Below are positions 22,407 through 59,415 of a stretch of 64,000 nt of DNA, one piece after another. A program made the translations under genes and the position numbers. The notes under the pieces were generated by a model. The model was not told the origin of the DNA, ran no database searches, and saw nothing but the letters and a program-made list of their open reading frames with translations. Origin of the DNA: an uncultured Chitinophaga sp. (lineage in GTDB: Bacteria > Bacteroidota > Bacteroidia > Bacteroidales > GCA-2748055). The stretch's first letter is position 1. Every line of letters begins with the position of its first letter. The stretch covers positions 5,564 through 69,563 of the forward strand of contig CAYGFI010000005.1 in the NCBI GenBank assembly GCA_964349045.1, read 5' to 3'.

Positions 22407-22447
22407 GGAAGCAGGAAGAAAACACGAAATGTTAAAATCCTGCTTCC
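22407..22447 (-). other. Intra-operon stem-loop just downstream of susD-like gene
   Basis: Perfect 10-bp inverted repeat GGAAGCAGGA / TCCTGCTTCC separated by 21 nt. No clear U-tract follows. Confidence 0.35.
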
Positions 22448-22455
22448 TCACACAA

Positions 22456-23925: not shown

Positions 23926-23948
23926 ATCTTTTCTTTTTAACAGGTTTA

Positions 23949-33707: not shown

Positions 33708-33845
33708 CAAGGTTTCGCGCAAAATCGTACACGACACAATGTAAAATATAATCCATACCTTCTAATAACTTTATGTTTCCTGCGTCTTTGCGTGAAAAAG
33801 AACCGAAATATACCGAGATACTATCCTGAAAAAACGAGATTGAAA

Positions 33846-43634: not shown

Positions 43635-45155
43635 CTAAAAGTTATAATAGGGATTTTGAACAAGGGCTTTATTGCGCTCAAGTTCCGTGTCATAAATAGG
43701 CATGTACCAGCCAAGCGGATTATTTAGCTTGGTAGCCAGGACCCTTTTCTGTGTTGAAGGAACATTTAAAACAATAATTTCAATTAATTTACTTTTACGT
43801 TTATAATCATTTCTCCGCCCCATCCTGAGAAGATCGAACCATCGTTTACCTTCAAATGCCAATTCCCGTGCGCGTTCATCTAGTATAGCATCTTCAAATG
43901 TACTTGCAGAATTTGGCAGATCCAATAATTGAACATTAGCTCTTTCGCGGATATCATTAAGAATTGCAAGGGCTTCCGGGAATCTGTTAATTTGGGATAA
44001 TGCTTCAGCTTTCATTAAATAGACATCTGCTAAACGATAAATGATCCAGTTTGCGCTGCTTGCCTCTATTCCTGACCTTACTGATTTTCCGTCAGGCCTC
44101 TGTCCAACATACTTCCAGATAATATAATTATTCTCGCCAATTTTGGCAATAGATTTATCCTCTCCGCGGTTGGGCTCCCGTTTTGAGGCTTGCTGAGTAA
44201 ACTCATTTGCAAAAATTTCAAGAGCCCGTTGACTGGGATCATAATTATTACTGTATTGCTGAGTCATTCCATAAATGTGGTTCCTTTGATTTAAAGCATC
44301 ATCAAAAAAGAATTCGAAAATTGTCTCCTTGCTTACCGGGTCCGTTTGCGGATAGTAATTTTCAAACCAGTCCGAACCCTCCAGGAGATGATGTTTGTTC
44401 AAAGCTATTAAGTTGTTAACCTGGGATATACATGCCTCGTAATCAGAAGGATCTGAAGAACCCGAGGCTTTCCAAAGGTAGATATCAGCCAGAAGAGCAT
44501 AAATTGCAGCTTTTGTAGCACGGCTTTTAACTTCCCTTAATGTTGGATATCCATCAATAGTTGCCCAGTTGATGGATTGTTTCAGATCAATTATCATTTG
44601 ATCCAGCACATCATCACCATCAGTTTTTGAAAGGTATAATTCAGCATCGTCGGTTGATGTTGGCATAAGTACAAGGGGTACATCTCTGAAAACTCTCACC
44701 AGGTAAAAATAGGCAAGGCTGCGGAGAAAATAGGCTTCCGATAAATAACCTTTGAGCTGGTAATCAGAGAAGGTGTTATCTATTTCTTTAACCTGCGGGG
44801 CAAAACTTATTACCTCATTGCAGAAATTAATAATCTTATAAAAACCAGTCCAGTTACAAAGGCCATTTTCAGGGTAAATATTACTTTCCATGACCTTTTT
44901 TTCATCCCCCGATGTATTAAAGTCTGATTTTACCAGGTCACCGCGTATTTCCCCATAAATAAAAAATAAGTTATCCATTTGCCCAAATGAGGTATACGCT
45001 CCCATTAATACAGCCTGAACATCTTCCTTGGTCTTCCAGAATTCTTCCCTGATGAGCCCCTGAGGTGGAATGAGAGCCATCCAGTCTTCGCATGCAAACT
45101 GAACACTTAGTAGGGTTAATATAAGAATTAGCTTCGCTTTTGTTTTCATCATCAT
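43635..45155 (-). CDS. SusD/RagB family lipoprotein
   Basis: 506 aa with signal LLSVQFACEDW. It has the SusD-like C-terminal region (ERARELAFEGKRWFDLLR) and lies downstream of a SusC gene. Confidence 0.85.
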   Translation of the reverse strand: MMMKTKAKLILILTLLSVQFACEDWMALIPPQGLIREEFWKTKEDVQAVLMGAYTSFGQMDNLFFIYGEIRGDLVKSDFNTSGDEKKVMESNIYPENGLCNWTGFYKIINFCNEVISFAPQVKEIDNTFSDYQLKGYLSEAYFLRSLAYFYLVRVFRDVPLVLMPTSTDDAELYLSKTDGDDVLDQMIIDLKQSINWATIDGYPTLREVKSRATKAAIYALLADIYLWKASGSSDPSDYEACISQVNNLIALNKHHLLEGSDWFENYYPQTDPVSKETIFEFFFDDALNQRNHIYGMTQQYSNNYDPSQRALEIFANEFTQQASKREPNRGEDKSIAKIGENNYIIWKYVGQRPDGKSVRSGIEASSANWIIYRLADVYLMKAEALSQINRFPEALAILNDIRERANVQLLDLPNSASTFEDAILDERARELAFEGKRWFDLLRMGRRNDYKRKSKLIEIIVLNVPSTQKRVLATKLNNPLGWYMPIYDTELERNKALVQNPYYNF

Positions 45156-45271: not shown

Positions 45272-48200
45272 TTAAAATCCGATTGATGCTGTAAATGTTA
45301 CCATCCTTGACGGGGGAGTTCTGGCATTATCAACCCCGATCCAGAACGGGTCGGTAGCATCCTGGCTAACTTCCGGGTCCTGTCCTGAATAATTGGTAAA
45401 AGTCATCAGTTTACGTCCGCTTAATGCCAGAGTTAATGACCTAAGGTTCAGTTTATTGCATATCGACTGAGGGAGCCTGTATCCGATCATTACATTAAGC
45501 AGTCTCAGGTAATCTCCTTTCTCAACATACCGGTCAGACCCGAGATTGTTAGCCGGATTATACAAATATGCCCGCGGTAGCATAGCTTTTTCATCCTGCC
45601 CCTGGACTCTCCATCTTCGCAATACAGCTTTACTCTGATTATTCTTGTCATTCATTCCTTCAGTCGATATGGCTACTCCATTAATAATATCAAAACCGAG
45701 GCGATAATGAAAACCGCATGAAACCTCCCAGCTTTTATATTTAGCCGAGGTTCCGTAACCGCCAATAAAATCCGGATTGGAGTCCCCAATATAGACCACG
45801 TCATTCAGATCGATTTTGCCATCGTGATTTATATCCTGATACCTGGCATCACCACCTTTGAATTTATAAGTACCGAGGTAAGTCATGGGAATAGGTGAAC
45901 CATTGTTATCATAAAGAATGTTTCCATCAGCATCACGTGCCATGGCATCTGCATCGGTCGGATAAACACCTAAATACCTGAATCCGAAGAAGGAACCCAT
46001 GGCTTGTCCTTGTTCAACCCTTCGGGGATATTCACCGTTGCCAATGGATGTAGATTTTTCTACATTAAAATTATCAGGAAGCCTGGTAAATGTGTTGATG
46101 TTTTGCGAAGAGTTGAAATAAACGGACCACCTGAAATCCTTTTTGCGGATAAGTTTAATGTCAAACATCAATTCCCAACCCCTGTTTTCCAGTTCACCTC
46201 CATTAAGTAACAGGAGTTTGTCGAAGCCTGATGAACCTGGAATTGGGTAATCCTTAAATAGAAGGTTTGATGTAGTCTTTTTATAAAGATCACCTTCCAA
46301 ATACATACGGTCCTTAAACAAATTAAATTCTATGCCAAGGTCAGTAGAACTAATGCTTTCCCATTTGAGGTTATTCAACTGGATTTGAGTAGGGACAACG
46401 GCTGTCAGGTTCATATAACTACTGGGATAAGGAGAACCATAAGTGGCAAATCGTGCATAAGGTGAACCAGGTTGACGTCCGGCGGTTCCCCAACTGGCAC
46501 GCAGCATACTTTCACCCAGAAAGCTAAGACTTTTAAAAAAGTTTTCATCCGAAAACCTCCACCCAACTGCAACTCCCTTGAAAACACCCCAACGGTTATT
46601 TGCTCCAAATGACGAACTTGCATCTGCCCTTGCAATAGTTTGAAGCATATAGCGATCCTTAAATTTATAGTTTAAATTCATAAGGGCACCTAATTCCCTC
46701 GTTTCCTGGGAACCTGTACCGATCCATCCAATCTGAGGATTAACGGAAGGATCCTGGATATCCGTACTCGGTGACTTAAGACTCTGGACGTACTGGTATT
46801 CCCAACCACTCTGAATGGTAACCCAGGTAAGAGCGCCTGAAAATATATGGTCTTTAGATTTAAAAGGTGAATCAAAAGCAAGCTGTGTTTCGGTATTGAT
46901 GGCAGAAGAGAGACCGTTGTTTTCATCTGCCCTGTTGATCTCCCATTCCAGCCAATCAAGTCCGATTGCATTGTATGGCAGGAAAGAATTTGCCTTATTT
47001 CCTGTATATTGGAACGATACAGTTTCCCTGAAAGTAATCTTATCCAGGATTTTGTAACGCAGAATAAATGTGTTATTCAGGGAATTACTGAGAACATCAT
47101 TTTTTCCAAGATTAGCAACAGCAACAGGATTAAAATAATTAAATCCACTACCCTGGTAACTGTTAATCGGGTTGAAATATTCACCGGTAAGTTTTCCATC
47201 GGCATCATGCTCCCAGATGCTCATATTGGGAGCTTTGATATAGGCCATTTCACGAATGTTCATACCCTGTGGCCTGCTATATACTATATAATTACCATCG
47301 GTTCTATTATTGGTGTAATTAAACTGTACAGAAAATAAAAGATTCCTCGAAAGAAAATAGTCGAGGTTAACGCGTGTTGAAAATCGTTTTGAACTGGTAT
47401 TTATGGTAGTACCCCCTTCATCTACATAACTTAATGATGTGAAATACCTTGTTTTCTGCCCCCCTCCTGAGATATTAAAATAATGGTCATTAGTTACAGA
47501 ATTCTGGGTTATTGCGCCTATCCAGTCAGTATTAGCGGAGTAGTTGTAAAAATCAACATAATCTTTATCATAGGCAATTTCTGAGGGAACTTTAAAGACC
47601 CCGTAGTTATTATGCCATTCTTCAAGCTGAAGCATAATATACTCATCGCCATTCAACATTGGGATTGGCGGGGGCTGATAATTAATACTGGTTTTATAGG
47701 AGTAATCGAATTGCACTTTTCCAAGGCGTCCTTTAAATGTTTCAATAATCAATACCCCGTCTGCTCCCTTTGACCCGTAAACGGCAGTAGAGGCTGCATC
47801 CTTTAGTACTTCAATCGATTTAATGTCCTGTAAAGCAATATTGACAAGGTTGCCGATATCCTCCGCATCAGCTGAACTCAGATCAAAACTGCCAGGTACG
47901 GAAAATTGAGGAATACCGTCAACGACGATCAGTGGTTTGTTATTTCCCATGGAGCTAATTCCACGGATAACAATCTGTGCCCCGGATCCGGGATCACCGG
48001 AAGCGCTGATGATATCAAGTCCGCTGACCTTTCCCTGCAAGGCATCAGAAGCGGAAGATACGCCCATCTCTTTCATATCCAGCAAATCAACCTTAACAGA
48101 TGATGAAGCATTATCCCGCTCATCGATATTGGTAAGGCTGTGACTTGATTTCGCCTTGACAGCAATAACGACTTCCTCCAATTCGAAATTGGTTTCAGCT

Positions 48201-48502
48201 AAATCAATACTCATAGGTTGTGTCGGATCAGGTATCACCTCCTTAGTTTCATAACCGATAAGGCTGATTTTAAGGATGTTATTAATATTTTTCATTTCAA
48301 GAATGAAGTCTCCGTTCACATTACAAATAGTCCCGTTTATAATACGGTCCTCTTTATCATACTCAATAATGTTTGCACCAATAATACCAAGCTTGTTATT
48401 ATCGATAACCCTTCCCCTGATTATGACCTTTTGCTGTGCTATGGCTGTTACAAAACCAAATATTGCAATTATAAGCAGGATAGTTTTTTTGAATTCTTTC
48501 AT
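45272..48502 (-). CDS. SusC/RagA family TonB-dependent transporter
   Basis: Start taken at the internal ATG 48502 (MKEFKKTILLIIAIFGFVTAIAQQ), which avoids overlap with the upstream gene. Plug region is VIRGISSMGNNKPLIVVDGIP and the terminal residues are ...FTASIGF. Confidence 0.85.
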   Translation of the reverse strand: MKEFKKTILLIIAIFGFVTAIAQQKVIIRGRVIDNNKLGIIGANIIEYDKEDRIINGTICNVNGDFILEMKNINNILKISLIGYETKEVIPDPTQPMSIDLAETNFELEEVVIAVKAKSSHSLTNIDERDNASSSVKVDLLDMKEMGVSSASDALQGKVSGLDIISASGDPGSGAQIVIRGISSMGNNKPLIVVDGIPQFSVPGSFDLSSADAEDIGNLVNIALQDIKSIEVLKDAASTAVYGSKGADGVLIIETFKGRLGKVQFDYSYKTSINYQPPPIPMLNGDEYIMLQLEEWHNNYGVFKVPSEIAYDKDYVDFYNYSANTDWIGAITQNSVTNDHYFNISGGGQKTRYFTSLSYVDEGGTTINTSSKRFSTRVNLDYFLSRNLLFSVQFNYTNNRTDGNYIVYSRPQGMNIREMAYIKAPNMSIWEHDADGKLTGEYFNPINSYQGSGFNYFNPVAVANLGKNDVLSNSLNNTFILRYKILDKITFRETVSFQYTGNKANSFLPYNAIGLDWLEWEINRADENNGLSSAINTETQLAFDSPFKSKDHIFSGALTWVTIQSGWEYQYVQSLKSPSTDIQDPSVNPQIGWIGTGSQETRELGALMNLNYKFKDRYMLQTIARADASSSFGANNRWGVFKGVAVGWRFSDENFFKSLSFLGESMLRASWGTAGRQPGSPYARFATYGSPYPSSYMNLTAVVPTQIQLNNLKWESISSTDLGIEFNLFKDRMYLEGDLYKKTTSNLLFKDYPIPGSSGFDKLLLLNGGELENRGWELMFDIKLIRKKDFRWSVYFNSSQNINTFTRLPDNFNVEKSTSIGNGEYPRRVEQGQAMGSFFGFRYLGVYPTDADAMARDADGNILYDNNGSPIPMTYLGTYKFKGGDARYQDINHDGKIDLNDVVYIGDSNPDFIGGYGTSAKYKSWEVSCGFHYRLGFDIINGVAISTEGMNDKNNQSKAVLRRWRVQGQDEKAMLPRAYLYNPANNLGSDRYVEKGDYLRLLNVMIGYRLPQSICNKLNLRSLTLALSGRKLMTFTNYSGQDPEVSQDATDPFWIGVDNARTPPSRMVTFTASIGF

Positions 48503-48545
48503 TTCGTTCACAAATCTTAGTTTAATAATCAATTTATCGAACAAA

Positions 48546-50867
48546 CTATTGAGTATCCGATTCATTTACCAAAAGGACCTTGTCAATCTGGTGAATAACA
48601 GCGTTGGAAATGACATTGGGGAATACTTCCAGTCCCCCTACCCCCTCTGAAGTAACAAGTTTCCTTACCGTAATAATATTGGTATTGGGTGATTCAGGAA
48701 TAGCTATGTAATCTGAACCTGACAGACCCGGGATATTTATTTCATCAACACCGGGATTTATATATACCTTGGTGAAGATAGTTGTAAAGGGTGTGGATTT
48801 TTCATCAATCCTGGTAGTCTCATAATATTTTGCAGGCTTATTTCCGTCAGTAAAAATCATGTCTCCCTGTATAAAATGGAAAAGAAGAAATTGCTTAAGA
48901 TCCGGAACACTCATTGTATCTACCTGATATTCAGTTAAAGCTGCCACACTTGGTATAAATACGGTATAAAATTCATTGTCGGAAATGAATTTATAAGTGT
49001 AAAGTTTGTCGTTTGTCAAACCAGCTTTTTTAAGCAGATTGTGAAAATAAGGAAAGGAAGTTGAAATTTTCTGAAATAAATCAACAGATGCAAAATTGAA
49101 CCAGTTTGAAATATTATAGGTAATCCCGTTATCAGCATTTGTGCTTATTTGTTTGGGAAAAACATTTACTTGCTCTTCTCCGCTGTAACCTATAGTTGAA
49201 GGAGCCGTTCCGCTTACCTCACCTGTTTCGTTGTTAAAAATTAAAAAATTCCCGGCAAGATTTCGGATAAACTCTTTTTTCGCGATTCCATTTGGAATTT
49301 CTACACCTATATGATTAAGAATCAACCTACGTAGCTCATTTGTCGATAACGAAATTTCCTGAAACTGGTCCCCCGATGTCTGAAAAAGCGAAAACCGGTC
49401 ATTAATCGGATTATATATAAGGGAGGAATCAAACCGCAGGTTTAAATCCGATTCCGCATAAAGTAAATAATTATTAGATTCTTTTTTTAGTGCAGGCAAT
49501 AAGCCTGTTTTTTCAATGGCATACATAGCAATTGAATAACCCCGCTGAAGGTAAATAGGCCCGGTAATGCTCTTAAATGCCCGGGGAACTATCATTTTAT
49601 TTACGCCAATGAAACTGCAATTGCTTCCAAATTCCTTATGAATTATGGTCGAAGGATCAACATATATTATATCTTTCTCACCATTATAAAATCCTTTATA
49701 GAAATCAGAAGGATAAATTGCATTGTAAGACATTTGCGTATTTGCCATCATTCTTTTTATATGAAGAGGAGTCTCTTTTAATGACCCCCAATTATCGGGA
49801 CCGGCAATATATTCACTGATGAATGCATCAAATGCATCATTGGTAGGAGCTATCAACCCATGATGATAGCGGATAGAAACATTACCCGGTAATCCGACTG
49901 TCCCCAATGGAGCTTTTGTTTGCTCATTCGTAATGTTAAATGCCAGTTTTGGAAAGCTTATGTCAAAAAGGGAATCTACCGTATATCCAAGGTCTGCTCC
50001 TGGTTGTGCGATAGTTCTTTCCCGGTTATAAAGGAATTCCGGAAATATATCAACCAGGTCAAGGAACTTACTGTAAGAAATGTCATCATTCTTTGTGCTG
50101 AGAATCTGGTAAGCGTTTTTAAGTGGTTCAATCACCCTGTCAATTACATGGATAAACCCGTTTTCAGCAAAAATGTCACCGGTAATTATTTTCCCACTGA
50201 CAAAGTAAATATCATTCGGACTATCAAAAGGCCTTTCAAAATAGAAAGTAAAATCATTCGAGCTAAGATCGAAAATGTTAAAGTACTCATTGTAAAAAAC
50301 CGGTGCATATTTTCTGGAATCAGTTGCCTGTCGTCTGTACCAGTCAGTGAGAAGTGTGTCAACAATAGCAATCACCTTGTTTTCATTGACCTTAACCCCA
50401 TATTTCGGGTCCTTATCACGCAACAAAGTTTCCCTTTTAAAACCTTTGGGCTTGTCGTTATTTATGTCAGTTGAATCGATCCATCCATGCACATCCAGGG
50501 ATCTGAGCTGGAGTTTACTCCAGGGATTCTGCACAATATGAAATTTAACAATACGGTTTAATTCGTCAGGTGGAATATCTGTAACAGAGTTATATCCGGG
50601 ATGAGACTGCAAATATAGTGTAAAGGCATCATTGTCCGGGGCAAATACAGTATAACTCCCTGAAGTATTAATAATAGTGTCATAACCGGTTATTTCCAGG
50701 CACCGGGCAAACTGAGAAAGTTCAGGACGAGACTTAATCTGGATAAACAACTTTCCTGCGAGCCAGTCAGGACGGGCATATTTGTCAGAAAGTTCAAGGT
50801 CTTCTTTGCAACTGATAATGCTTGCAAACAACAATGCAAGAAACAATAATTTTTTGATTCGAATCAT
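48546..50867 (-). CDS. Multi-FAS1 (about four fasciclin domains) lipoprotein, first gene of the string
   Basis: 773 aa with lipobox ASIISCKED. Repeated FAS1 marks are YTVFAPDNDAFTLY, LIAPTNDAFDAF, YTVFIPSVAAL and NAVIHQIDKVLL. Confidence 0.65.
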   Translation of the reverse strand: MIRIKKLLFLALLFASIISCKEDLELSDKYARPDWLAGKLFIQIKSRPELSQFARCLEITGYDTIINTSGSYTVFAPDNDAFTLYLQSHPGYNSVTDIPPDELNRIVKFHIVQNPWSKLQLRSLDVHGWIDSTDINNDKPKGFKRETLLRDKDPKYGVKVNENKVIAIVDTLLTDWYRRQATDSRKYAPVFYNEYFNIFDLSSNDFTFYFERPFDSPNDIYFVSGKIITGDIFAENGFIHVIDRVIEPLKNAYQILSTKNDDISYSKFLDLVDIFPEFLYNRERTIAQPGADLGYTVDSLFDISFPKLAFNITNEQTKAPLGTVGLPGNVSIRYHHGLIAPTNDAFDAFISEYIAGPDNWGSLKETPLHIKRMMANTQMSYNAIYPSDFYKGFYNGEKDIIYVDPSTIIHKEFGSNCSFIGVNKMIVPRAFKSITGPIYLQRGYSIAMYAIEKTGLLPALKKESNNYLLYAESDLNLRFDSSLIYNPINDRFSLFQTSGDQFQEISLSTNELRRLILNHIGVEIPNGIAKKEFIRNLAGNFLIFNNETGEVSGTAPSTIGYSGEEQVNVFPKQISTNADNGITYNISNWFNFASVDLFQKISTSFPYFHNLLKKAGLTNDKLYTYKFISDNEFYTVFIPSVAALTEYQVDTMSVPDLKQFLLFHFIQGDMIFTDGNKPAKYYETTRIDEKSTPFTTIFTKVYINPGVDEINIPGLSGSDYIAIPESPNTNIITVRKLVTSEGVGGLEVFPNVISNAVIHQIDKVLLVNESDTQ

Positions 50868-51300
50868 TTTATTCGTTTCTAATAGTAGTTTGAGGTACGT
50901 TAAAAACAGAGCTTGTGGAGTTGTTTCAAAAGTACTAAATTTTGTTTAAATCCAAATCGATTGAAATATATAAATCTGCTTACCTATTAATTACTTTTTT
51001 AAATATTTAAGATATTTTAAAGTAGGACAAGTTATTATTTCATCACCAACAAAAAGTTCCTGTACTATTATATTCTTGTGTCATCAATATAGTAATGAAT
51101 AGCCAAAATAAGGAAACAATTAAATATGATAGTCCGAGCAGATTACCCAGATCATACATTATTTTAACATTTTTTTAACAACATTTATTTATTTCCATTT
51201 TGCTTTAAAAGGAATTCTTTGAGTAGTTAAAAATAAACTGTATTTATTTATTGTGAAATGAACAAAATGGACTATAATTTGCACAAAATGGATAAAGTAA
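50868..51300 (-). repeat. Left arm of a mirror-image paralogous upstream region (upstream of the fasciclin/SusCD string)
   Basis: The reverse complement is colinear with 52451-52910. The best block is 51123-51171 against 52599-52647, 49 nt with 3 mismatches. Confidence 0.8.
51256..51293 (-). promoter_or_regulatory. Candidate AraC-family operator: two direct repeats with 21-bp phasing
   Basis: The minus strand reads ATCCATTTTGTGCAAATTATAGTCCATTTTGTTCATTT. The unit TCCATTTTGT occurs at 51292-51283 and again at 51271-51262. Confidence 0.45.
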
Positions 51301-51541
51301 AGTGTGTTGGTCAGGAGATTCAAAATGCCAATTGAACGAAGCCAGGATCTCTCATTGCGGGAATACAAAATATATCAATAGTTAAGTCAAACTCACTGAT
51401 ATTGAAAACAATGTACGTAAAACATATTGAAATATTTCCTGGAAACCTAACACATCATTTTAACCTTTCCGGAAAAATATTAGCATTTTGCAATTTACCC
51501 TTTCAAAAACCTATCTTTGAGAATAATTACCCGATAAATCC

Positions 51542-52444
51542 ATGGAAGATTTCTTCAAATACCTTACTCCCGGTGAAGAAGATATTGGTTGGGGACTTTA
51601 CCTGAATGTTGTAGGTAAAACCATTATTCCGCCAGGACTGATTTATCCCAGTATCGATCACCCCAGCGGTTATTTTTTCACTTGGGACAAGGGACGGGTT
51701 CTTCATGAATACCAGATCGTATATATTTCAGAAGGCGATGGGATCTTTGAAGATGAAACCGGCGAATTCCCTATTAAAGCAGGATCGCTACTAATTCTGC
51801 AGCCTGGAAGATGGCATCGGTATAAACCGGACCCGGGTAAAGGATGGACAGAAAGTTATGTTGGATTTAATGGTCTTTCGGCAAATTTAATGTTTACCAA
51901 TCCTCAACTTACTCTTATAAAACCCGTTGTCCATATTGGTAACCGTGAGGAATTCATTGACACGTATTATAAAATATTCAGATTTGCACAAGCTGAAAAG
52001 CCTGGATTCCAACAGATTACTGCAGGTATGGTAATGAAACTCCTGGGATATCTTATTTCAATTGAAAAAAGACTTGATTTCTCGGAGAAAAGAATCGAGA
52101 AAATCATAGAAAAAGCATGTTTTCTCATAAGAGAAAATATTGAAAAGGAAATTGATTTTAAACAGTATGCAGATGAGAACTGTGTAGCATATTCCTATTT
52201 CAGAAGAATGTTTAAAATGTATACCGGATTACCCCCGGCTAAATATCATCTTGACCTTAAGATCATCAGGAGCCGTGAATTATTGCTTTCAACTGATAAA
52301 ATAATCAAGGAAATCTGCAATGAAGTTGGATTTGAATCAACTTATTATTTCAGCAGACTATTTAAAAAAAAAACAGGTATTTCTCCTTCCCTCTTCAGAA
52401 CTTCGGCCAATAATCAAAAAGGGCAGAAAAAAATTATTCGGTGA
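51542..52444 (+). CDS. AraC family transcriptional regulator (N-terminal cupin-like sensor, C-terminal double HTH)
   Basis: 300 aa. The C-terminus (YFRRMFKMYTGLPPAKYHLDLKI...ICNEVGFESTYYFSRLFKKKTGISPSLFR) is the AraC/XylS HTH signature. Confidence 0.85.
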   Translation: MEDFFKYLTPGEEDIGWGLYLNVVGKTIIPPGLIYPSIDHPSGYFFTWDKGRVLHEYQIVYISEGDGIFEDETGEFPIKAGSLLILQPGRWHRYKPDPGKGWTESYVGFNGLSANLMFTNPQLTLIKPVVHIGNREEFIDTYYKIFRFAQAEKPGFQQITAGMVMKLLGYLISIEKRLDFSEKRIEKIIEKACFLIRENIEKEIDFKQYADENCVAYSYFRRMFKMYTGLPPAKYHLDLKIIRSRELLLSTDKIIKEICNEVGFESTYYFSRLFKKKTGISPSLFRTSANNQKGQKKIIR

Positions 52445-52450
52445 TTTCCG

Positions 52451-52910
52451 TTATTTAGTCATTTTGTGCAAACTTTGGTTCACTTTGTTCATTTAACTTG
52501 ACCTTAACGTATCCTAATTTTACCTGTTCTAAGGATTACGTTAAGATGTAAATGAAAATAAATATATAAAAATCATTATCTGTATATATTCCCATAATAA
52601 TGTTAAAATAGTGTATGATCTGGGTAATCTGCTCGAACAATCATATTAAAATGTTTGTTTATTTTGGATAATCATTTAATATGTAATGGCATAAAAGAAT
52701 AAATACATTTTCACTTTTTGTTTGGTATGTAATAATTTCATATCCTTGCTTAAAATTTCTTTGATAATTGTAATTAATTGATTTGCAGTTTAAAATATAT
52801 TTATTAGGTGAACTAATAATTTCATAGCATGTTTTTTTATTTGGATTTTGTTTTTAGCTGTTTTAATATTGTTTATCCTTAAATATTTTACTAATCCTAA
52901 ACTGATAATT
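52451..52910 (+). repeat. Right arm of the mirror-image paralogous upstream region (upstream of the LTD/T9SS protein gene)
   Basis: Colinear with the reverse complement of 50868-51300. It also contains an arm-specific hairpin, CTTAACGTATCCT ... AGGATTACGTTAAG, at about 52503-52546. Confidence 0.8.
52458..52495 (+). promoter_or_regulatory. Candidate AraC-family operator: two direct repeats with 21-bp phasing
   Basis: GTCATTTTGT lies at 52458-52467 and TTCACTTTGT at 52479-52488, followed by TCATTT. The sequence is homologous to 51256-51293. Confidence 0.45.
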
Positions 52911-55900
52911 ATGAAGACAAAACTACTATTGATTGTTCTTCTTATGGTTGCCGGGATTCTGAATGCCCAGGATACCATAAGAACTCTTGTGATTACGGAG
53001 TACAGGGGTGATGATTCACGTCAAAACTTCGTTGAAATCAGCAATGTTGGTACAACAACATTAAACCTTGCTAATTTTCAGATTGGAACCGTTTCTCCCT
53101 GGAGTACTCCGATAGAAAGAGGCAATCTGCGAAAAGCATGGAATTTAATAGGGAATACACCCTGGCCATTTACAGTAGTGCTTCGGTTGCCGGAAAAAAA
53201 TCTTGCTCCCGGTAAATCTTTTACTATCGGTCCATTGTACGACTGGAACCCTGAAGCATTTAACAGGGGAGACCCAAGAGGCATCCGGGTCATGAACAAA
53301 AAGGAATGGTGGACCCTTGCAGACATTCAGGCCCATTTTCCTGAAAACCCGAAGCAGCCAGACCCTACAGATAGTGCAAATATCTGGCACCGTCTGATTG
53401 ATCAGTGGGGCGGCGCTTATGGTATATACCTCGCACAGTATCTTTCACCAACCGACTCTGTTGTAATTGATTTGGTGAATGTTTATGAATGGGATGCCGA
53501 TGGCACAAGAGATGAGAGTCCTCATGATGTGGCAGGTGTTACCCATGCTACAAGAACTGCTACACTTATTCGCAAGTTCAGCGTGAAGAAAGGGAATCTT
53601 GATTTTCTGAAAGCAGCCGGACTTGATTATACCGACTCCGAATGGATACCCATTCCCCATCTTACCGGCGGCTGGGAACCTCATCGGTCCTTGTTCTGGA
53701 CTGCTGGTAACCATGGAGATTATAATTTGGACGAAGCAACACTTACCTCAAATACTGTTGATATAAACTGGACCAACCATGTTCTTACGGTTCCCTGGGG
53801 TGTAAGGAGAGACGATTCACTTATGTACCAGTTTAACCGTAAACCCGGTTTAGCTTGGCATTTTGATTATGCCCCGTCATCTGTCGATTCTGCATTCTAT
53901 TCTCTCAGAACCGGTGATGCCATGACTATTTATGCCTGTGGAAATGATGTGGATATTATTAAATTTGATATTGTTGTTTCTCCTCCTACAGCTGGTGAAA
54001 ACAGGGTTGTACCTAAAAAGATGGGAAATTTACATGGATATTTCTCCCTTGGTCCACCCAGCTGGGTAGTAACTGATAAGGTTCCCGGCATGGATACCAT
54101 TCAGGAGATTCCCTTTGGAATCCGGTCGGATACCCTGCTCAAATATCTCGAAAAAGCTCCCGAAGCAAACTGGGAATTCGAATGGGTTGACGGTAATGTC
54201 AGGACAGATCTACAGACCGGTGATATCCTGAAAGTTACAGCCAAGAATGCAAGCGTAAAGAGATACTATATTAAGCCAAATAAAATCCAGAAAAGCCATA
54301 ATGCTAACCTGGCCTCTATCACCTGGCCTGATATTCCTGAATTCTATAAAGGTCTCTATGGGTGGGTTGGTGATACTATTCCAACTTTCGCGACCAGCAA
54401 AACCGAATACATTCTCCAGGTTCCCCTCGATGTAACTGGTATACCTGCTTTGGTTGGGAAAACACAGAATATCAATGCACAACTTGAGGTTGACAGGGCT
54501 AAAAATTTAACCGGATCTAATGCAGACAAAACGGTTACATTTACAGTTACGGCCCAGGATGATACCACTATAATGGTATACAAGGTTCAGCTCGAAAAAG
54601 AAAAAGACCTATCCAATATTCAACCCTGGGTGGGAAAACCATTTATTTCACAATTTGTCTGGATGAATGATTTCCGCAATACTTTTCTTGAAGTAGTAAA
54701 TCCGGGAACCGAACCTCTTGATTTAAGTAATTATATGATCGTTTCCGGGTATGCTGCCAATCCGGCTGACGCCATCAGACAAGCCGCAGGAACCGGTGAT
54801 TTTGCCGAAAGGTATAGAAAATATATCCCAGGCTATAAATGGGTACCGGAAGCTGATTGGGCAACAAAACCAGGCATCGCTCAACCGGATGTAAATATTG
54901 ATCCGATTGTTCAGGCTGGAGATGTCTTTGTTTTGGCTCAAATTTACTGGGATAGTCCGGATGGAAGCGCTCCTACTTTCATAAAGCCTCAGGTTGATCT
55001 TGATTTAGCGAATAACCCATGGGATGAACCATTAGCACAGTGGTCATCTCTTGAAATGTGGTTTGGAAAAGTCTATTTATTCGAAATCCTGAACGATTCT
55101 GTTAAAACAGGAAAAAAACCTGCAACAGATCCGAATGATTTTGAACTTCTTGACTGCTTTGCCGATAATGCCGGACAATGGAATGTTGGAGGTATTCCTG
55201 CAGGTCAAACCTTTGGTTATACCAGAAAGCCGGAAGTTTATCTAGGCAATCCTGTTATTGGAGGCTCATTTGGTACAACAGAAGAGAATAGTGAATGGGT
55301 AATGCTTAATGAAGCCCGGCTGCAGGCAAAAGGTTACCCCTGGCCAAACTGGAGAGCCTATACCTGTGAAGGTATTGGTTCTCACTTCATGAAGGCTTAT
55401 ACCGGCTATATGTCCATTGTTGGATCAAATGCCTACAAAGTTTCTGAAGGTTACACCAATGCAGAGACCATCAGAGGGATCGTAACCGGAACCACTGTAT
55501 CAGATTTTCTTGCTGCTTTATCAAAAGTAGATGAAGGTCAAACCCTGACAGTAAAAAGAGCTGGTGTTGCTGTTCTATCAACTTCTGCACTTGTAAATGG
55601 AGATGTTCTTGAAGTGGTTTCCGCTGACGCAGTTAATACAACCAAATACACTCTTGAAGTTACTGCCGGTGGTTTACCCGATAACGCGGTTCTTACTTCA
55701 ACTCAATATACAATTGCAATTACGGGTGCAACCGGAACAATATCAGGTTTTGATTATAGTGTACCCTTAAGGACAATTGTTGAAAATGTTGTAGTTCCTG
55801 ATGGTGCAACATTCAATGTTATAGACGGAAACAATGCATACGTGCCCCTTATGATCCTGAATTATGATACCATTTTGGTGGCTGTCCGGGTAAATTCCAA

Positions 55901-56735
55901 TACATATTTTGAAGTAATAGCTGAAAACGGAACTACCAAGATTGTTTACCAGCTGATACCAAACATGATGAACAGCGGTGCATTTGTAACCTCCAATGTT
56001 TTTACTGTAAACCATTCGGCTTCACTCATATCTGATGTTCCTGATGGTGCCGGAGTATATGGTTTTATGAAGTATATTATACCTGCTCCAGGTGCAACAG
56101 TTAAACTGATTGATAAACTTGGTTATGAAAGGACCATGGGTAATATCTATGTAGACGACCGGATTTTAGTTACTTCTGAAGATGGTCTGACAACCAAGAT
56201 ATATTATCTGAAGGTTTTACGTGAAATATCCAATTACCTTGCATATGTATTATCCGATATCTATGCTGTTGATCAGATAGGGTATACAATTACAGGTGAT
56301 TTCAGTGTTGCAACCACTGTAAGCAGCTTCCTCGCAAACCTTATCCCCGCTGAAGGAGCTACAATGAAGGTAACAAACGCTGCTGGTGTTCAACAAACCG
56401 GCAACATGGCGGTTGGTAATTTACTTGTTGTTTCTGCAGGTGATGGTATTACCACGGTAACCTATTCACTTGAAGTTGGAACAAGTGTACGCAATATCAA
56501 CGCTGGTTCAATAAATGTTTATCCAAACCCGAGTAACGGAATGATCTATGTCTCCGGCCTCGAAACAGGACACAGGGTAGCCGTTACCAATATGCTGGGT
56601 CAGAGATTGATTGACAGGGAAGTTAAACAGAACATCGAAATGTTCAACCTGGAAGGTCAGTCTGGCGGAGTTTATTTCATAACTGTTAATAACGGAAACC
56701 AGGTTGTAGGTCGCTACAAACTGATTCTGCAATAA
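52911..56735 (+). CDS. Large T9SS-secreted protein with two lamin-tail-domain-like modules, a cadherin-like beta-sandwich and repeated ~75-aa modules; C-terminal T9SS sorting domain
   Basis: Start taken at ATG 52911 (MKTKLLLIVLLMVAGILNAQ). LTD-like segments are LVITEYRGDDSRQNFVEISNVGTTTLNLANFQI and NTFLEVVNPGTEPLDLSNYMIV. The CTD is INVYPNPSNGMIYV...GGVYFITVNN...YKLILQ. Confidence 0.6.
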   Translation: MKTKLLLIVLLMVAGILNAQDTIRTLVITEYRGDDSRQNFVEISNVGTTTLNLANFQIGTVSPWSTPIERGNLRKAWNLIGNTPWPFTVVLRLPEKNLAPGKSFTIGPLYDWNPEAFNRGDPRGIRVMNKKEWWTLADIQAHFPENPKQPDPTDSANIWHRLIDQWGGAYGIYLAQYLSPTDSVVIDLVNVYEWDADGTRDESPHDVAGVTHATRTATLIRKFSVKKGNLDFLKAAGLDYTDSEWIPIPHLTGGWEPHRSLFWTAGNHGDYNLDEATLTSNTVDINWTNHVLTVPWGVRRDDSLMYQFNRKPGLAWHFDYAPSSVDSAFYSLRTGDAMTIYACGNDVDIIKFDIVVSPPTAGENRVVPKKMGNLHGYFSLGPPSWVVTDKVPGMDTIQEIPFGIRSDTLLKYLEKAPEANWEFEWVDGNVRTDLQTGDILKVTAKNASVKRYYIKPNKIQKSHNANLASITWPDIPEFYKGLYGWVGDTIPTFATSKTEYILQVPLDVTGIPALVGKTQNINAQLEVDRAKNLTGSNADKTVTFTVTAQDDTTIMVYKVQLEKEKDLSNIQPWVGKPFISQFVWMNDFRNTFLEVVNPGTEPLDLSNYMIVSGYAANPADAIRQAAGTGDFAERYRKYIPGYKWVPEADWATKPGIAQPDVNIDPIVQAGDVFVLAQIYWDSPDGSAPTFIKPQVDLDLANNPWDEPLAQWSSLEMWFGKVYLFEILNDSVKTGKKPATDPNDFELLDCFADNAGQWNVGGIPAGQTFGYTRKPEVYLGNPVIGGSFGTTEENSEWVMLNEARLQAKGYPWPNWRAYTCEGIGSHFMKAYTGYMSIVGSNAYKVSEGYTNAETIRGIVTGTTVSDFLAALSKVDEGQTLTVKRAGVAVLSTSALVNGDVLEVVSADAVNTTKYTLEVTAGGLPDNAVLTSTQYTIAITGATGTISGFDYSVPLRTIVENVVVPDGATFNVIDGNNAYVPLMILNYDTILVAVRVNSNTYFEVIAENGTTKIVYQLIPNMMNSGAFVTSNVFTVNHSASLISDVPDGAGVYGFMKYIIPAPGATVKLIDKLGYERTMGNIYVDDRILVTSEDGLTTKIYYLKVLREISNYLAYVLSDIYAVDQIGYTITGDFSVATTVSSFLANLIPAEGATMKVTNAAGVQQTGNMAVGNLLVVSAGDGITTVTYSLEVGTSVRNINAGSINVYPNPSNGMIYVSGLETGHRVAVTNMLGQRLIDREVKQNIEMFNLEGQSGGVYFITVNNGNQVVGRYKLILQ

Positions 56736-59001: not shown

Positions 59002-59238
59002 TAAGTTTCCAAATTAACTGGAATGATTGATCAAAAATTTTTGTTCGACGAAAATTAGACATAATACCAAAGCTCTATCATTTTTATTATAGGAATTACC
59101 TTATTCCAGAGAAAGAAAAGCCCTCAAACCCGGGGTAGTGCTTGTCACGCCTTGCGGGAGGTTGGGGAGGGGAATTAAGAATAATTTCTATAAAAAAGTC
59201 GCTCTTGAGGTACAAAAACAATTAAATTAATCCAAATT

Positions 59239-59270
59239 GTTCATTTAGTGTAAACTAAAGTTCATTTTGT
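59239..59270 (+). promoter_or_regulatory. Candidate AraC-family operator upstream of the sulfatase gene
   Basis: GTTCATTTAGT lies at 59239-59249 and GTTCATTTTGT at 59260-59270. The spacing is 21 bp and the site is ~150 bp upstream of ATG 59416. The unit is the same as in the two arms flanking the AraC gene. Confidence 0.4.
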
Positions 59271-59415
59271 CTATTTTACAATGAATTAAATTACCATAAA
59301 TTTACTTTTGCCAGGGATAAATTTCAATTTGAGAAGTTCATGACTTACATTTCTTTTAGCAAAAGGATCAACCATAAAACTCAGAATAGCCCAAATTTCA
59401 CCAATCCTAAATCTG

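What the first reader, a model, noticed from the sequence alone, without database searches (positions are those of the whole stretch)
50868..52910. AraC regulator gene flanked by ~430-bp mirror-image paralogous upstream regions of two divergent operons
Two stretches give colinear, clearly related sequences.

- **Left arm:** the minus strand from 51300 down to the start codon of the fasciclin/SusCD string (50867).
- **Right arm:** the plus strand from 52451 to the start codon of the LTD/T9SS protein gene (52911).
- **Best block:** 51123-51171 (reverse complement) against 52599-52647, 49 nt with 3 mismatches. Consensus: AATGTTAAAATARTGTATGATCTGGGTAATCTGCTCGRACWATCATATT.
- **Further shared blocks, in the same order:** CATTTTGTGCAAA and TTTGTTCATTT; AAATG.AAATAAATA; TTATTTTGG.TA.TCATT; ACTTTTTGTT; CTTAAAAT.TCT; GTAATTAAT; GCAG.TTTA.A.ATATTT; TTTGGATTT.
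- **Distance to the ATG:** similar on both sides (433 vs 460 nt).

AT-rich intergenic DNA is not expected to retain this by chance. The pattern implies that one promoter-plus-long-leader cassette was duplicated in inverted orientation around the regulator gene, so both operons are probably co-controlled. The near-perfect 49-mer sits ~265-310 nt upstream of the start codons. That position fits a transcribed leader element or a second regulator site better than a core promoter.
Basis: partly seen in the sequence, partly recalled or inferred. Interest (0 to 1): 0.7.

Follow-up and report, generated by a model that had tools for sequence, protein, structure and literature searches.

The report
Mirror-image AraC-controlled promoter-leader cassettes
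Two inverted ~340-bp copies of one regulatory cassette (an AraC-type binding site, a promoter and a long leader with a 30-nt ultra-conserved block) flank a sugar-regulator gene and face two outward-pointing glycan-utilisation operons, so both are very probably switched on together. The layout is ordinary in kind, but the conserved block has no known function.

Summary
The 49-mer occurs only twice in 64 kb.

**AraC-type operator.** The inner end of each arm carries a direct repeat, CATTTTGTGCAAA-N8-CAYTTTGTTCATTT, with 21-bp periodicity.
- A Bacteroidetes −7 box (TAnnTTTA) follows exactly 27 nt later.
- A third copy precedes the sulfatase gene at 59242.
- The same operator-to-box geometry holds in 10 of 10 operators from five related metagenome or genome loci.

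The arms are therefore duplicated AraC-dependent promoter and leader cassettes forming a three-promoter regulon.

**The 49-mer module.** The 49-mer belongs to a 78-nt module: Block A (30 nt), a variable 21 nt, then Block B (TGTTT..TTAWTTTGG).
- It is present in both arms of a second species (L092).
- Orthologous right arms share 29 of 30 Block A bases, while the neighbouring leader is only 32-40% identical.
- The module is non-coding, shows no conserved RNA structure, matches no Rfam family and is not a dispersed repeat.
- It is absent from other close relatives.

Its function is unresolved. A DNA-level site for the AraC regulator or for a second factor is most likely.

**Verdict.** This is a new member of a known kind that holds an uncharacterised conserved cis-element. 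Interest is moderate to low.

The parts
50964..51300 (-). Left arm: a paralogous cassette (operator, distal promoter and leader) pointing at the fasciclin/SusCD operon.
   Evidence: It is colinear with the right arm at 70% identity, z≈40 against shuffles.
52451..52802 (+). Right arm: a paralogous cassette pointing at the LTD/T9SS gene. It starts 7 nt after the AraC stop codon.
51542..52444 (+). AraC-family regulator gene, with an N-terminal cupin/AraC_binding domain and a C-terminal double HTH.
   Evidence: Pfam gives PF02311, PF12833 and PF00165. The protein aligns nearly full length to the E. coli AraC NCBIfam model (95 bits, below that model's cut-off of 208).
51256..51290 (-). Left operator: the direct repeat CATTTTGTGCAAA-N8-CATTTTGTTCATTT with a 21-bp period.
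   Evidence: (D14).
52460..52494 (+). Right operator: CATTTTGTGCAAA-N8-CACTTTGTTCATTT.
   Evidence: It is conserved in L082, L092 and L093.
59242..59276 (+). Third operator copy, upstream of the sulfatase gene (ATG at 59416). A −7 box, TAAATTTA, lies at 59297-59304.
51228..51235 (-). Distal promoter −7 box TATTTTTA, 27 nt after the proximal half-site.
52515..52522 (+). Distal promoter −7 box TAATTTTA, 27 nt after the proximal half-site.
51142..51171 (-). Block A, left copy: AATGTTAAAATAATGTATGATCTGGGTAAT.
   Evidence: In the four copies, 28 of 30 columns are invariant.
52599..52628 (+). Block A, right copy. These are the first 30 nt of the 49-mer (52599-52647).
   Evidence: It matches the orthologous right arm of L092 at 29 of 30 bases.
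51103..51121 (-). Block B, left copy: AATTGTTTCCTTATTTTGG, which resembles a −7 box. The TTATTTTGG core starts 58 nt after the TGTTAAAATA core of Block A.
52650..52667 (+). Block B, right copy: AATGTTTGTTTATTTTGG.
50927..50956 (-). Gene-proximal promoter candidate for the fasciclin operon: TTTG, 18 nt, TACTTTTG. The box lies 67 nt before the ATG.
   Evidence: The orthologous box is conserved in L082, L092 and L095.
52840..52871 (+). Gene-proximal promoter candidate for the LTD gene: TTTG, 20 nt, TAATATTG.
   Evidence: It is conserved in the right arms of L082, L092 and L093.
51487..51519 (+). The AraC gene's own promoter candidate: TTTG, 21 nt, TATCTTTG, 30 nt before the ATG.
   Evidence: The TATCTTTR box is conserved upstream of AraC homologues.
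51452..51464 (-). Third copy of the Block A 13-mer GTTAAAATRRTGT, in the spacer between the left operator and the AraC promoter.
   Evidence: The window has three exact matches, all in this locus.

Best explanation
The two arms are paralogous copies of one AraC-dependent regulatory cassette, placed in inverted orientation on either side of the regulator gene.

**How each cassette works**
- It starts with an operator made of two ~14-bp half-sites in direct repeat, 21 bp apart.
- A dimer of the adjacent AraC-like protein (cupin sensor domain plus double HTH) binds there when its sugar ligand is present (inferred).
- The proximal half-site ends about 20 nt upstream of a Bacteroidetes −7 box. This gives an activator-dependent promoter with no good −33 element.
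- Transcription from that distal promoter runs through a ~350-380-nt leader into the fasciclin/SusCD operon on the left and the LTD/T9SS genes on the right.
- A third operator and promoter drive the sulfatase gene, so the locus is a three-promoter regulon.
- Conserved gene-proximal promoters probably give regulator-independent basal expression.

**The 49-mer.** It is the core of a separately selected 78-nt module inside the leader: Block A, 21 variable nt, then Block B, in a fixed 58-nt register. I read it as a DNA-level cis-element acting on both operons. An auxiliary site for the same AraC-type regulator (araO2-like) is most likely, and a site for a second trans-acting factor is next. A structured RNA, a gene or a mobile repeat fits worse.

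**Shown:** paralogy, the operator and box geometry, cross-species conservation, the absence of coding or RNA-structure signals, and no further copy in the 64-kb window, the fetched loci or the public collections scanned.

**Inferred:** binding by the AraC protein, promoter activity, and the role of the module.
For: **Paralogy**
- establish the similarity of the arms and the excess conservation of the 49-mer.

**Operator**
- The 35-bp direct repeat occurs three times in the window and not at all in shuffles.
- The seven best half-site matrix hits in the 64-kb window are these sites, scoring 13.9-22.3. The 99th percentile of the null distribution (best hit per shuffled intergenic region) is 13.3.
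- The same operator sits next to the AraC orthologue in L082 (both sides), L092 (both sides), L093, L095 and L096.
- TAnnTTT[AG] follows at 27 nt in nine operators and at 26 nt in one, although the intervening bases are not conserved. The chance density is 0.003 per position.

**Agreement with published knowledge**
- AraC-family regulators of Bacteroides, and the AraC-type DNA-binding domains of hybrid two-component systems, are predicted to use direct repeats with ~21-bp periodicity (PMC3870299; PMC3878776).
- The primary sigma factor of Bacteroidetes uses TAnnTTTG at −7 and TTTG at −33 (PMC7366714).
- The regulator has full AraC architecture.

**The module**
- Orthologous right arms of the window and L092 are 89% identical in the operator, 97% in Block A and 78% in Block B. 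They are only 32-40% identical in the flanking leader.
- The Block A to Block B register is 58 nt in all four copies. Distances to the operator (100-388 nt) and to the ATG (152-310 nt) vary.
- GTTAAAATRRTGT also occurs in the spacer upstream of the AraC promoter, a position that neither predicted flanking promoter would transcribe.
- A near-identical GTTAAATAATGTA is the distal half of the conserved site next to AraC homologues in at least seven other loci. There a −7 box follows 44 nt later, against 43-44 nt to the −7-like box of Block B in the window.
Against: - No transcription start, binding or expression data exist. Everything about activity is inferred from sequence.
- A leader of ~350 nt is far longer than typical Bacteroides 5' UTRs, whose median is 32 nt. 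Conserved gene-proximal promoters exist, so the operator could act on those instead.
- The matrix built from this clade's operator half-sites does not score Block A on either strand.
- The resemblance of Block A to the relatives' distal half-site is not significant window-wide: 1 hit at up to 1 edit against 0.56 expected.
- The spacing between operator and Block A is not helically phased across copies (100, 120, 120 and 388 nt). This argues against a strict looping geometry.
- 28 of 30 invariant positions is more uniform than a usual transcription-factor site.
- The module is missing in L082, the L095 left arm and the L093 right arm, although operator and promoters are kept there. It is therefore dispensable for basic control.
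- Only two species carry it, so the conservation statistics rest on four copies, which may partly homogenise each other.
Confidence: 0.7

Rival explanations
1. The module works at the RNA level. It would be an unstructured or weakly structured leader segment that is bound by a small RNA or an RNA-binding protein, or that acts as an attenuator, so that both operon mRNAs are co-regulated after initiation.
For: - The module lies downstream of the predicted distal promoters and has the same orientation relative to the downstream gene in all four copies.
- Its position relative to promoter and ATG is flexible, as expected for an RNA element.
- Near-uniform conservation over 30 nt suits base pairing.
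- The left copy folds into a hairpin of −11.2 kcal/mol with z = −3.3.
Against: - No Rfam family scores better than E≈4.
- The right copy folds no better than shuffles, z = −0.65.
- The outer stem TATGAT/ATCATA is lost in both L092 copies.
- RNAalifold gives −1.85 kcal/mol with no compensatory pair.
- No terminator-like site lies in either arm.
- A third copy of the 13-mer core lies in a spacer that neither predicted flanking promoter would transcribe.
Confidence: 0.2
2. The module is an ops-like recruitment or pause site in the transcribed DNA for a specialised NusG paralogue. It would secure read-through of the two long surface-protein operons.
For: - It sits in the leader of long operons: about 15.7 kb on the left, and 6 kb or more on the right.
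- It is orientation-fixed, position-flexible and about 40-80 bp long.
- It is conserved without any coding or RNA-covariation signal.
- Bacteroides opsX elements are ~40-bp multipartite leader DNA elements (PMC11685472).
Against: - No NusG/UpxY-like gene is present in the 64-kb window.
- Block A lacks the GCG..AGC non-template hairpin of ops and opsX.
- Known cases are capsule or LPS operons, not PULs.
- The module is absent in close relatives that have the same operons.
Confidence: 0.08
3. Block A is the DNA target of an RNA-guided dCas12f-sigmaE transcription system encoded elsewhere in the genome, possibly with an overlapping hth-associated ncRNA.
For: - Published targets lie in large intergenic regions upstream of susCD operons, flank an hth gene and overlap a conserved ncRNA. 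They start transcription 45-48 bp downstream of a 5'-G target-adjacent motif (PMC13472631).
- A G at Block A position 4 would put that start at the beginning of Block B (reckoned by hand from the alignment).
- Conservation over a contiguous block fits base pairing.
Against: - No dCas12f, sigmaE or guide-like sequence is in the window.
- The described systems come from Flavobacteriia, Cytophagia and Sphingobacteriia. Bacteroidales is not mentioned in the paper.
- The hth here is a 300-aa AraC-type sugar regulator with its own operator.
- No conserved RNA structure is present.
- Published guides are 14-16 nt, whereas 30 nt are conserved here.
Confidence: 0.04
4. The 49-mer has no function of its own. 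Its near-identity would reflect a recent gene-conversion tract between two old inverted repeats.
For: - The two window copies are more alike (88% over 78 nt) than any cross-species pair (76-82%). This suggests some concerted evolution.
- Species-specific substitutions are shared by both arms.
Against: - Block A is 29 of 30 identical between orthologous arms of two species whose AraC proteins are only 78% identical. The neighbouring leader there is 32-40% identical.
- Conversion within a genome cannot explain conservation between genomes.
- Arm-specific variants (A/G at position 13, G/A at position 38) are shared across species.
Confidence: 0.04
5. The arms are the inverted repeats of an invertible segment (inverton) or of a mobile cassette that carries the regulator gene.
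For: - Inverted repeats flank a 1.4-kb segment.
- One relative, L094, has the fasciclin and LTD genes directly divergent with no AraC gene between them.
Against: - No recombinase or transposase is in the window.
- The arms are only 70% identical.
- Inversion would swap equivalent promoters, with no phenotypic switch.
- No target-site duplication is visible at the outer ends (reading).
- Synteny is conserved across species.
- No further copy turned up in 185,579 species-representative genomes (23-mer, exact matches only) or in viral contigs (28-mer). The five metagenome matches to the 20-mer are chance hits in G+C-rich DNA.
Confidence: 0.03
6. The 49-mer encodes the start of a small hydrophobic peptide: a leader peptide, or a type I toxin-like ORF. 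A 38-aa gene is called there in the public contig.
For: - Gene callers report a 38-aa ORF at 51046-51159(-).
- Its product has a predicted transmembrane stretch.
- The left copy of the window and the right copy of L092 share MY[DY]LGNL[LI][GE]LSYLIV, with some synonymous differences.
Against: - Two of the four copies carry in-frame stops at codons 12-13.
- Variable sites are spread 9/8/10 over codon positions, so there is no third-position excess.
- The right-arm copies start with GTG.
- The peptide has no homologue other than itself among 1.84 billion representative proteins.
Confidence: 0.03

Closest known systems
E. coli AraC system (araI1-I2 direct repeat overlapping the −35, distal araO2 half-site, regulator gene next to its targets)
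   Same: - The regulator has the same two-domain build, aligning over nearly its full length to the AraC model.
- The two half-sites are in direct repeat with a 21-bp period and abut the promoter.
- The regulator gene is adjacent to the controlled promoters.
- A possible extra, separated half-site-like element (Block A) lies 100-120 nt from the operator.
   Different: - The promoter is of the Bacteroidetes type (−7 TAnnTTTG).
- Three target promoters sit in one PUL, two of them as inverted paralogous cassettes.
- The extra element lies downstream of the start site, is not helically phased across copies and does not score with the operator matrix.
- Looping is untested.
Predicted AraC-family regulons of Bacteroides (RhaR/BT3768) and the AraC-type DNA-binding domains of hybrid two-component systems that control PULs
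   Same: Both use direct-repeat motifs with ~21-bp periodicity upstream of PUL or catabolic operons, with the regulator encoded in the locus (PMC3870299, PMC3878776).
   Different: - The half-site sequence differs.
- The regulator is a cytoplasmic cupin-type AraC protein, not a hybrid two-component system.
- The whole promoter and leader, not just the site, is duplicated.
- A second conserved module is present.
Operator-promoter next to AraC homologues of 73-78% identity (L002-L007, L048, L079, L088, L091)
   Same: - The site is bipartite, with a CAAAATG/CATTTTG core.
- The 7-mer core of the proximal half-site ends 27 nt before a TAnnTTTG box.
- The site lies between the regulator gene and a divergent target gene.
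- The distal half, GTTAAATAATGTA, resembles Block A.
   Different: - The half-sites are 19 bp apart rather than 21 bp.
- The target genes differ (rhamnosidase, GH43, isomerase-like).
- There is no inverted repeat around the regulator in 78 loci.
- There is no Block A/B module.
RfaH ops and Bacteroides UpxY opsX leader elements
   Same: These are conserved DNA elements in long leaders of long surface-structure operons. They are orientation-dependent and position-flexible, and opsX is about 40 bp long.
   Different: No NusG paralogue is nearby, no GCG..AGC hairpin is present, and the operon class differs.
dCas12f-sigmaE RNA-guided transcription targets upstream of susCD operons
   Same: [quoted passage not shown]
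   Different: No effector or guide is seen, the taxonomic class differs, the hth is an AraC-type protein with its own operator, and no structured ncRNA is present.

Membership tests
AraC/XylS-family activator-dependent promoter (operator plus promoter) | A regulator with an AraC-type double HTH DNA-binding domain is encoded at the locus. | tested here: met
   PF12833 and PF00165, plus the PF02311 cupin domain. NCBIfam AraC model matched over residues 47-293.
AraC/XylS-family activator-dependent promoter (operator plus promoter) | The binding site consists of two asymmetric half-sites in direct repeat about two helical turns apart. | tested here: met
   The period is 21 bp in all 10 operators examined.
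AraC/XylS-family activator-dependent promoter (operator plus promoter) | The promoter-proximal half-site abuts or overlaps the −35/−33 region of the target promoter. | tested here: met
   TAnnTTT[AG] lies 26-27 nt after the proximal half-site core in 10 of 10 operators. The promoter assignment itself is inferred from consensus.
AraC/XylS-family activator-dependent promoter (operator plus promoter) | The site co-occurs with orthologues of the regulator and recurs at several targets. | tested here: met
   Three sites in the window. The site is present in L082, L092, L093, L095 and L096. It is absent in L094, which lacks the regulator.
AraC/XylS-family activator-dependent promoter (operator plus promoter) | The protein binds the site and activates transcription in response to its ligand. 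| not testable with these tools
   Needs EMSA or footprinting, reporter assays and identification of the ligand.
Bacteroidetes primary-sigma promoter | TAnnTTTG at −7, with TTTG about 19-21 nt upstream. | tested here: inconclusive
   - The distal boxes are TAnnTTTA with no −33 element.
- The proximal candidates and the AraC promoter carry both elements.
- No transcription start data are available.
Structured cis-regulatory RNA (riboswitch, leader or attenuator) | A match to a described family, or a conserved secondary structure with covariation. | tested here: not met
   Rfam gives nothing better than E≈4. RNAalifold gives −1.85 kcal/mol with 0 compensatory pairs. No terminator is found.
Inverton (phase-variable invertible segment) | Inverted repeats plus a site-specific recombinase, with both orientations observed. 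| tested here: inconclusive
   Inverted repeats are present. No recombinase is in the 64 kb. Orientation variants cannot be tested without reads.
Dispersed repeat or MITE | Many copies in the genome, unrelated to the neighbouring genes. | tested here: not met
   - The window holds only two copies.
- 746 kb of related loci hold only four copies, at the same two positions in two species.
- An exact 23-mer gave no hit in 185,579 species-representative genomes, and a 28-mer gave none in viral contigs.
- The five metagenome hits to the 20-mer are chance hits.
- The rest of the source genome was not available.
Small protein or type I toxin gene | An intact ORF in all copies, a codon-position substitution bias, and homologues. 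| tested here: not met
dCas12f-sigmaE RNA-guided transcription target | A guide RNA in the same genome with a seed match next to a 5'-G motif, and an effector locus present. | not testable with these tools
   The genome beyond the contig is not available. Nothing of the kind is in the window.
ops/opsX NusG-paralogue recruitment site | A polymerase pause with a non-template-strand hairpin, and a cognate NusG paralogue. | not tested
   - No NusG paralogue is in the window.
- The GCG..AGC motif is absent by inspection.
- Pausing cannot be tested with these tools.

The most novel reading that the evidence does not exclude
The Block A/Block B module is a previously undescribed class of cis-element in Bacteroidales PUL leaders. 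It would be read base by base by a trans-acting nucleic-acid-guided or multi-protein machine, for example a dCas12f-sigmaE-type RNA-guided initiation complex or a PUL-specific NusG-paralogue recruitment site. It would be layered on top of ordinary AraC control, giving two operons a private second input.
Probability: 0.1. Interest if true: 0.65.

Novelty: new member of a known kind. Interest (0 to 1): 0.35.

Why it matters
- **A concrete regulon to test.** The analysis gives a testable regulon for an uncultured Bacteroidales PUL: a fasciclin/SusCD operon, LTD/T9SS surface proteins and a sulfatase, all under one AraC-type sugar sensor. It names a defined 35-bp operator and predicted start sites.
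- **How PUL regulons can grow.** A whole promoter and leader cassette was copied, rather than a binding site evolving anew.
- **A clean candidate for a new regulatory input.** The 30-nt Block A is the most conserved non-coding sequence of the locus, at 97% between species whose flanking leader is saturated. It matches no known RNA family, gene or repeat.
- **If the module proves to be only an auxiliary AraC site,** the locus is a tidy textbook-like example and nothing more.

Tried and rejected
**Exact-word scans for the 49-mer core**
- The 23-mer gave no hit in 185,579 species-representative genomes.
- The 20-mer gave five hits in JGI metagenomes, all chance hits in G+C-rich DNA.
- A 28-mer gave no hit in viral contigs.

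**Inverted repeats around AraC homologues**
- None was found in 78 genome loci; scores were 19-34, the same as controls.
- Those loci are not syntenic.

**Small-ORF reading**
- Rejected.

**RNA readings**
- Rfam, single-sequence folding and RNAalifold gave nothing conserved.

**Auxiliary half-site tests**
- The clade half-site matrix does not hit Block A.
- The relatives' distal half-site pattern is not enriched window-wide.

**Other tests**
- Helical phasing of operator to Block A is not conserved.
- A sequence profile of the module found only its own four training copies in 746 kb.
- No recombinase, transposase, sigma factor, Cas12f-like or NusG-like gene is in the window.

**DNA that could not be fetched**
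- The two most wanted relatives were unavailable: the P0003 contig (same synteny, intergenic lengths 654 and 461 nt) and the P0247 contig.

**Unresolved**
- The orientation of the CAWWWTG core relative to the promoter, between this clade and the more distant AraC homologues, stays ambiguous because the core is nearly self-complementary.


Full report

Yes. The region was read directly. The repeat finder lists a colinear series of inverted-repeat blocks between 50966-51296 and 52454-52798. The longest is 94 nt at 83% (51094-51187 against 52583-52676).

A local alignment of rc(50868-51320) with 52445-52910 scores 163. Five hundred dinucleotide-preserving shuffles give 26.8 ± 3.4, with a maximum of 47 (z ≈ 40). 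The wrong orientation scores 26.

It has no other copy in the window at up to 3 mismatches. Within the aligned 335 columns (70% identity), a 46/49 window is itself unexpected, with permutation p = 0.0007.

The alignable arms run 51300→50964 (minus strand) and 52451→52802 (plus strand). The last ~100 nt before each start codon are not paralogous to each other.

**2. Genes around it**

Pfam gives the following:
- a fasciclin protein, 48546-50867(-);
- SusC, 45272-48565(-);
- SusD, 43635-45155(-);
- a 300-aa AraC-family protein with a cupin ligand domain and a double HTH, 51542-52444(+);
- a 1274-aa LTD protein with a T9SS sorting tail, 52911-56735(+);
- a second T9SS cargo protein, 56899-59001(+);
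- a sulfatase, 59416-60816(+).

Two more fasciclin proteins and a second SusC/SusD pair follow on the minus strand. GH26, an epimerase, WbsX-like proteins, an FGE-sulfatase and a LacI-regulated second SusCD pair lie elsewhere in the window.

The regulator aligns over residues 47-293 to NCBI's E. coli AraC model, at 95 bits, which is below that equivalog's cut-off. No recombinase, transposase, sigma factor or NusG-like gene is present. The window comes from an ENA metagenome contig.

**3. The inner ends of the arms are an AraC-type operator with a promoter**

Each arm begins with CATTTTGTGCAAA-N8-CAYTTTGTTCATTT, two half-sites 21 bp apart. A scan for this architecture finds exactly three sites in the window and none in shuffled sequence.

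The third site, at 59242-59276, lies upstream of the sulfatase gene. It was also picked up by blastn of the arms.

A weight matrix built from the half-sites places the seven best hits of the whole 64 kb in these three sites.

Exactly 27 nt after the proximal half-site core, each site has TAnnTTTA (51228-51235, 52515-52522, 59297-59304). This matches the Bacteroidetes −7 element TAnnTTTG (PMC7366714).

The geometry holds in 10 of 10 operators from the window and five related loci: 27 nt in nine, 26 nt in one. The intervening bases are not conserved, and the box occurs at only 0.003 per position in this DNA.

Published comparative genomics predicts direct repeats of about 21-bp periodicity for two groups:
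- AraC-family regulators in Bacteroides (PMC3870299);
- the AraC-type domains of hybrid two-component systems (PMC3878776).

I therefore read the inner ~75 nt of each arm as operator plus activator-dependent promoter, and the locus as a three-promoter regulon of the adjacent regulator. Binding and activity are inferred, not shown.

**4. Other promoter-like elements**

| Element | Composition | Coordinates | Conservation |
|---|---|---|---|
| AraC gene's own promoter | TTTG-21-TATCTTTG | 51487-51519 | −7 box conserved among homologues |
| Gene-proximal, fasciclin side | TTTG-18-TACTTTTG | 50927-50956 | orthologous arms of L082, L092, L095 |
| Gene-proximal, LTD side | TTTG-20-TAATATTG | 52840-52871 | orthologous arms of L082, L092, L093 |

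Bacteroides 5' UTRs have a median of 32 nt. The ~350-380-nt leaders implied by the distal promoters would therefore be unusually long. This is a caveat.

**5. Relatives**

AraC homologues of 73-78% identity in 80 genome loci and several metagenome contigs sit in other contexts (rhamnosidase, GH43, GH106, isomerase-like genes). They have no flanking inverted repeat.

They do carry a conserved bipartite site followed by a perfect TAnnTTTG, pointing at the divergent gene. The 7-mer core of the proximal half-site ends 27 nt before the box, as in this clade's operators.

Only a small clade shares the fasciclin-AraC-LTD synteny:

| Locus | AraC identity | What the intergenic regions hold |
|---|---|---|
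| L082 | 87% | Both operators. Left intergenic region only 268 nt. Right leader has no recognisable 49-mer. |
| L095 | 80% | Same short left arm as L082. |
| L093 | 69% | Right operator, and only TGTTAAAATA of the module. |
| L096 | 79% | Breaks off inside an L092-like left arm. |
| L094 | no AraC gene | Fasciclin and LTD genes directly divergent, no operator. |
| L092 | 78% | Both operators and a clear homologue of the 49-mer in both arms. |
| P0003 contig | 84% | Same gene order, intergenic lengths 654 and 461 nt. No DNA could be fetched. |

**6. Anatomy and conservation of the 49-mer module**

The four copies align without gaps over 78 nt:
- Block A, AATGTTAAAATARTGTATKATCTGGGTAAT, is invariant at 28 of 30 columns.
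- The next 21 nt are invariant at 8 of 21 columns.
- Block B, AWTGTTTNNTTAWTTTGG, is invariant at 14 of 18 columns.

The distance from the TGTTAAAATA core of Block A to the TTAWTTTGG core of Block B is 58 nt in all four copies. The distance from the operator (100, 120, 120 and 388 nt) and the distance to the ATG (152-310 nt) both vary.

Identity between the orthologous right arms of the window and L092:

| Segment | Identity |
|---|---|
| Operator | 89% |
| Spacer | 40% |
| −7 box | 88% |
| The 78 nt up to Block A | 36% |
| Block A | 97% |
| Middle 21 nt | 62% |
| Block B | 78% |
| The next 60 nt | 32% |

Block A is thus the most conserved non-coding piece of the locus. That cannot be explained by gene conversion within one genome.

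The evolutionary signals are mixed:
- Arm-specific variants (A/G at position 13, G/A at position 38) are shared between species.
- Species-specific variants are shared between arms.
- The identity matrix shows no clean orthology.

I infer that the duplication predates the split of these two lineages, that partial homogenisation followed, and that the module was lost in L082, L095 and L093. A profile of the module finds only these four copies in 746 kb of related loci.

**7. What the module is not**

- **Not coding.** The 38-aa ORF called in the public contig is interrupted at codons 12-13 in two of four copies. Variable sites fall 9/8/10 over the three codon positions. The peptide has no relative among 1.84 billion representative proteins.
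- **Not a known or structured RNA.** Rfam gives nothing better than E≈4. The left-copy hairpin (−11.2 kcal/mol) is not matched in the right copy (z = −0.65), and its outer stem is lost in L092. RNAalifold gives −1.85 kcal/mol with no compensatory change. No terminator lies in either arm.
- **Not a dispersed repeat or phage or mobile sequence,** as far as exact-word scans of the public collections and the sequence in hand can tell.
- **Not obviously an inverton.** No recombinase is present, the arms are only 70% identical, and inversion would exchange equivalent promoters.

**8. What the module most likely is**

The fixed 58-nt register with a variable middle is what protein-DNA or promoter-like architectures look like. 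Three further observations point the same way:
- The 13-mer GTTAAAATRRTGT of Block A has a third exact copy at 51452-51464(-). That position lies in the spacer upstream of the AraC promoter, which neither predicted flanking promoter would transcribe.
- A near-identical GTTAAATAATGTA forms the distal half of the site next to AraC homologues in at least seven other loci.
- In those loci a −7 box follows 44 nt later, against 43-44 nt from Block A to the −7-like box of Block B.

This favours an auxiliary site for the same AraC-type regulator. It would work like araO2, or be a second AraC-responsive promoter.

The support is weak for four reasons:
- The clade's half-site matrix does not score Block A.
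- The resemblance to the relatives' half-site is not significant window-wide.
- The spacing from operator to Block A is not helically phased.
- 28 of 30 invariant positions is more uniform than a typical transcription-factor site.

A site for a second factor therefore remains a serious alternative. Two published Bacteroidetes mechanisms share the outward features: conserved DNA in a long leader or large intergenic region, fixed orientation and flexible position.
- ops/opsX recruitment sites for NusG paralogues (PMC11685472).
- dCas12f-sigmaE RNA-guided initiation targets upstream of susCD operons next to an hth gene, with a start site 45-48 bp from the target-adjacent motif (PMC13472631).

Neither cognate protein is in the window, and neither reading can be tested without the genome.

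**9. Comparison with the known, and novelty**

The core of the finding is a regulator gene flanked by two outward promoters that share its operator, plus a third operator nearby. This is a standard AraC-type regulon in a Bacteroidetes PUL. The membership features that can be tested in silico are all met.

Two things are less usual. The whole ~340-bp promoter and leader is paralogous, not just the binding site. The leader also holds an uncharacterised 78-nt module under strong selection in two species.

I rate it a new member of a known kind. There is a roughly 10% chance that the module represents a regulatory element of a kind not yet described for PULs.

**10. Verdict**

- The 49-mer is functional but unexplained.
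- Interest is 0.35.

Noticed in passing
window 59242-59304: A third copy of the AraC-type direct-repeat operator with its −7 box lies 112-174 nt upstream of the sulfatase gene. It extends the regulon beyond the two arms and has no 49-mer module.
   Followed up: yes
window 59120-59176; L092 3906-3918(-) and 4083-4095(+); L096 17-29: A G+C-rich palindromic element (GGTTGGGGAGGGG / CCCCTCCCC...) sits in otherwise AT-rich intergenic DNA. In L092 an inverted pair of it forms a ~270-nt insertion between the operator and Block A of the left arm. It looks like a small dispersed repeat or MITE of this bacterial group.
   Followed up: partly
L002-L007, L048, L079, L088, L091 (45-305 nt upstream of the AraC homologue): AraC homologues of 73-78% identity carry a conserved bipartite site (GGTTAAATAATGTAAAG...GTGCAAAATGTGAATTG). 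A perfect TAnnTTTG follows 20 nt downstream and points at a divergent rhamnosidase, GH43 or isomerase-like gene. This is a ready-made operator prediction for that subfamily.
   Followed up: partly
L094 5554-6000: In one relative the fasciclin and LTD orthologues are directly divergent across 447 nt, with no AraC gene and no operator. The regulator with its two cassettes is either an insertion in the window's clade or a loss here.
   Followed up: partly
window 51046-51159 (-): A 38-aa hydrophobic ORF is called in the public contig annotation and starts inside the 49-mer. It is probably spurious: no homologues, stops in paralogous copies and no codon periodicity.
   Followed up: yes
window 52445-52460: No terminator-like structure lies between the AraC stop codon (52444) and the right operator (52460). 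AraC transcripts may therefore read into the right cassette and the LTD gene.
   Followed up: no
window 51487-51519 and 51321-51327, 51196-51202: Seven of the 25 CATTTTG/CAAAATG heptamers of the 64-kb window fall in the ~1.5 kb of intergenic DNA of this locus. These include isolated copies at 51196, 51321 and in the AraC promoter's −33 region (51484). They may be extra half-sites, for example for autoregulation.
   Followed up: partly
window 16603-27167 and 32598-35066: A second PUL-like cluster is present: a LacI-family regulator, SusC/SusD, DUF4832/DUF4874 and a PKD protein. GH26, an N-acylglucosamine-2-epimerase-family gene, an FGE-sulfatase and WbsX-like genes also occur. Together they suggest mannan or sulfated-glycan use.
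   Followed up: no
window 17722-19773 (-) and 28719-29588 (-): Two sizeable ORFs (683 aa and 289 aa) have no Pfam or NCBIfam match.
   Followed up: no
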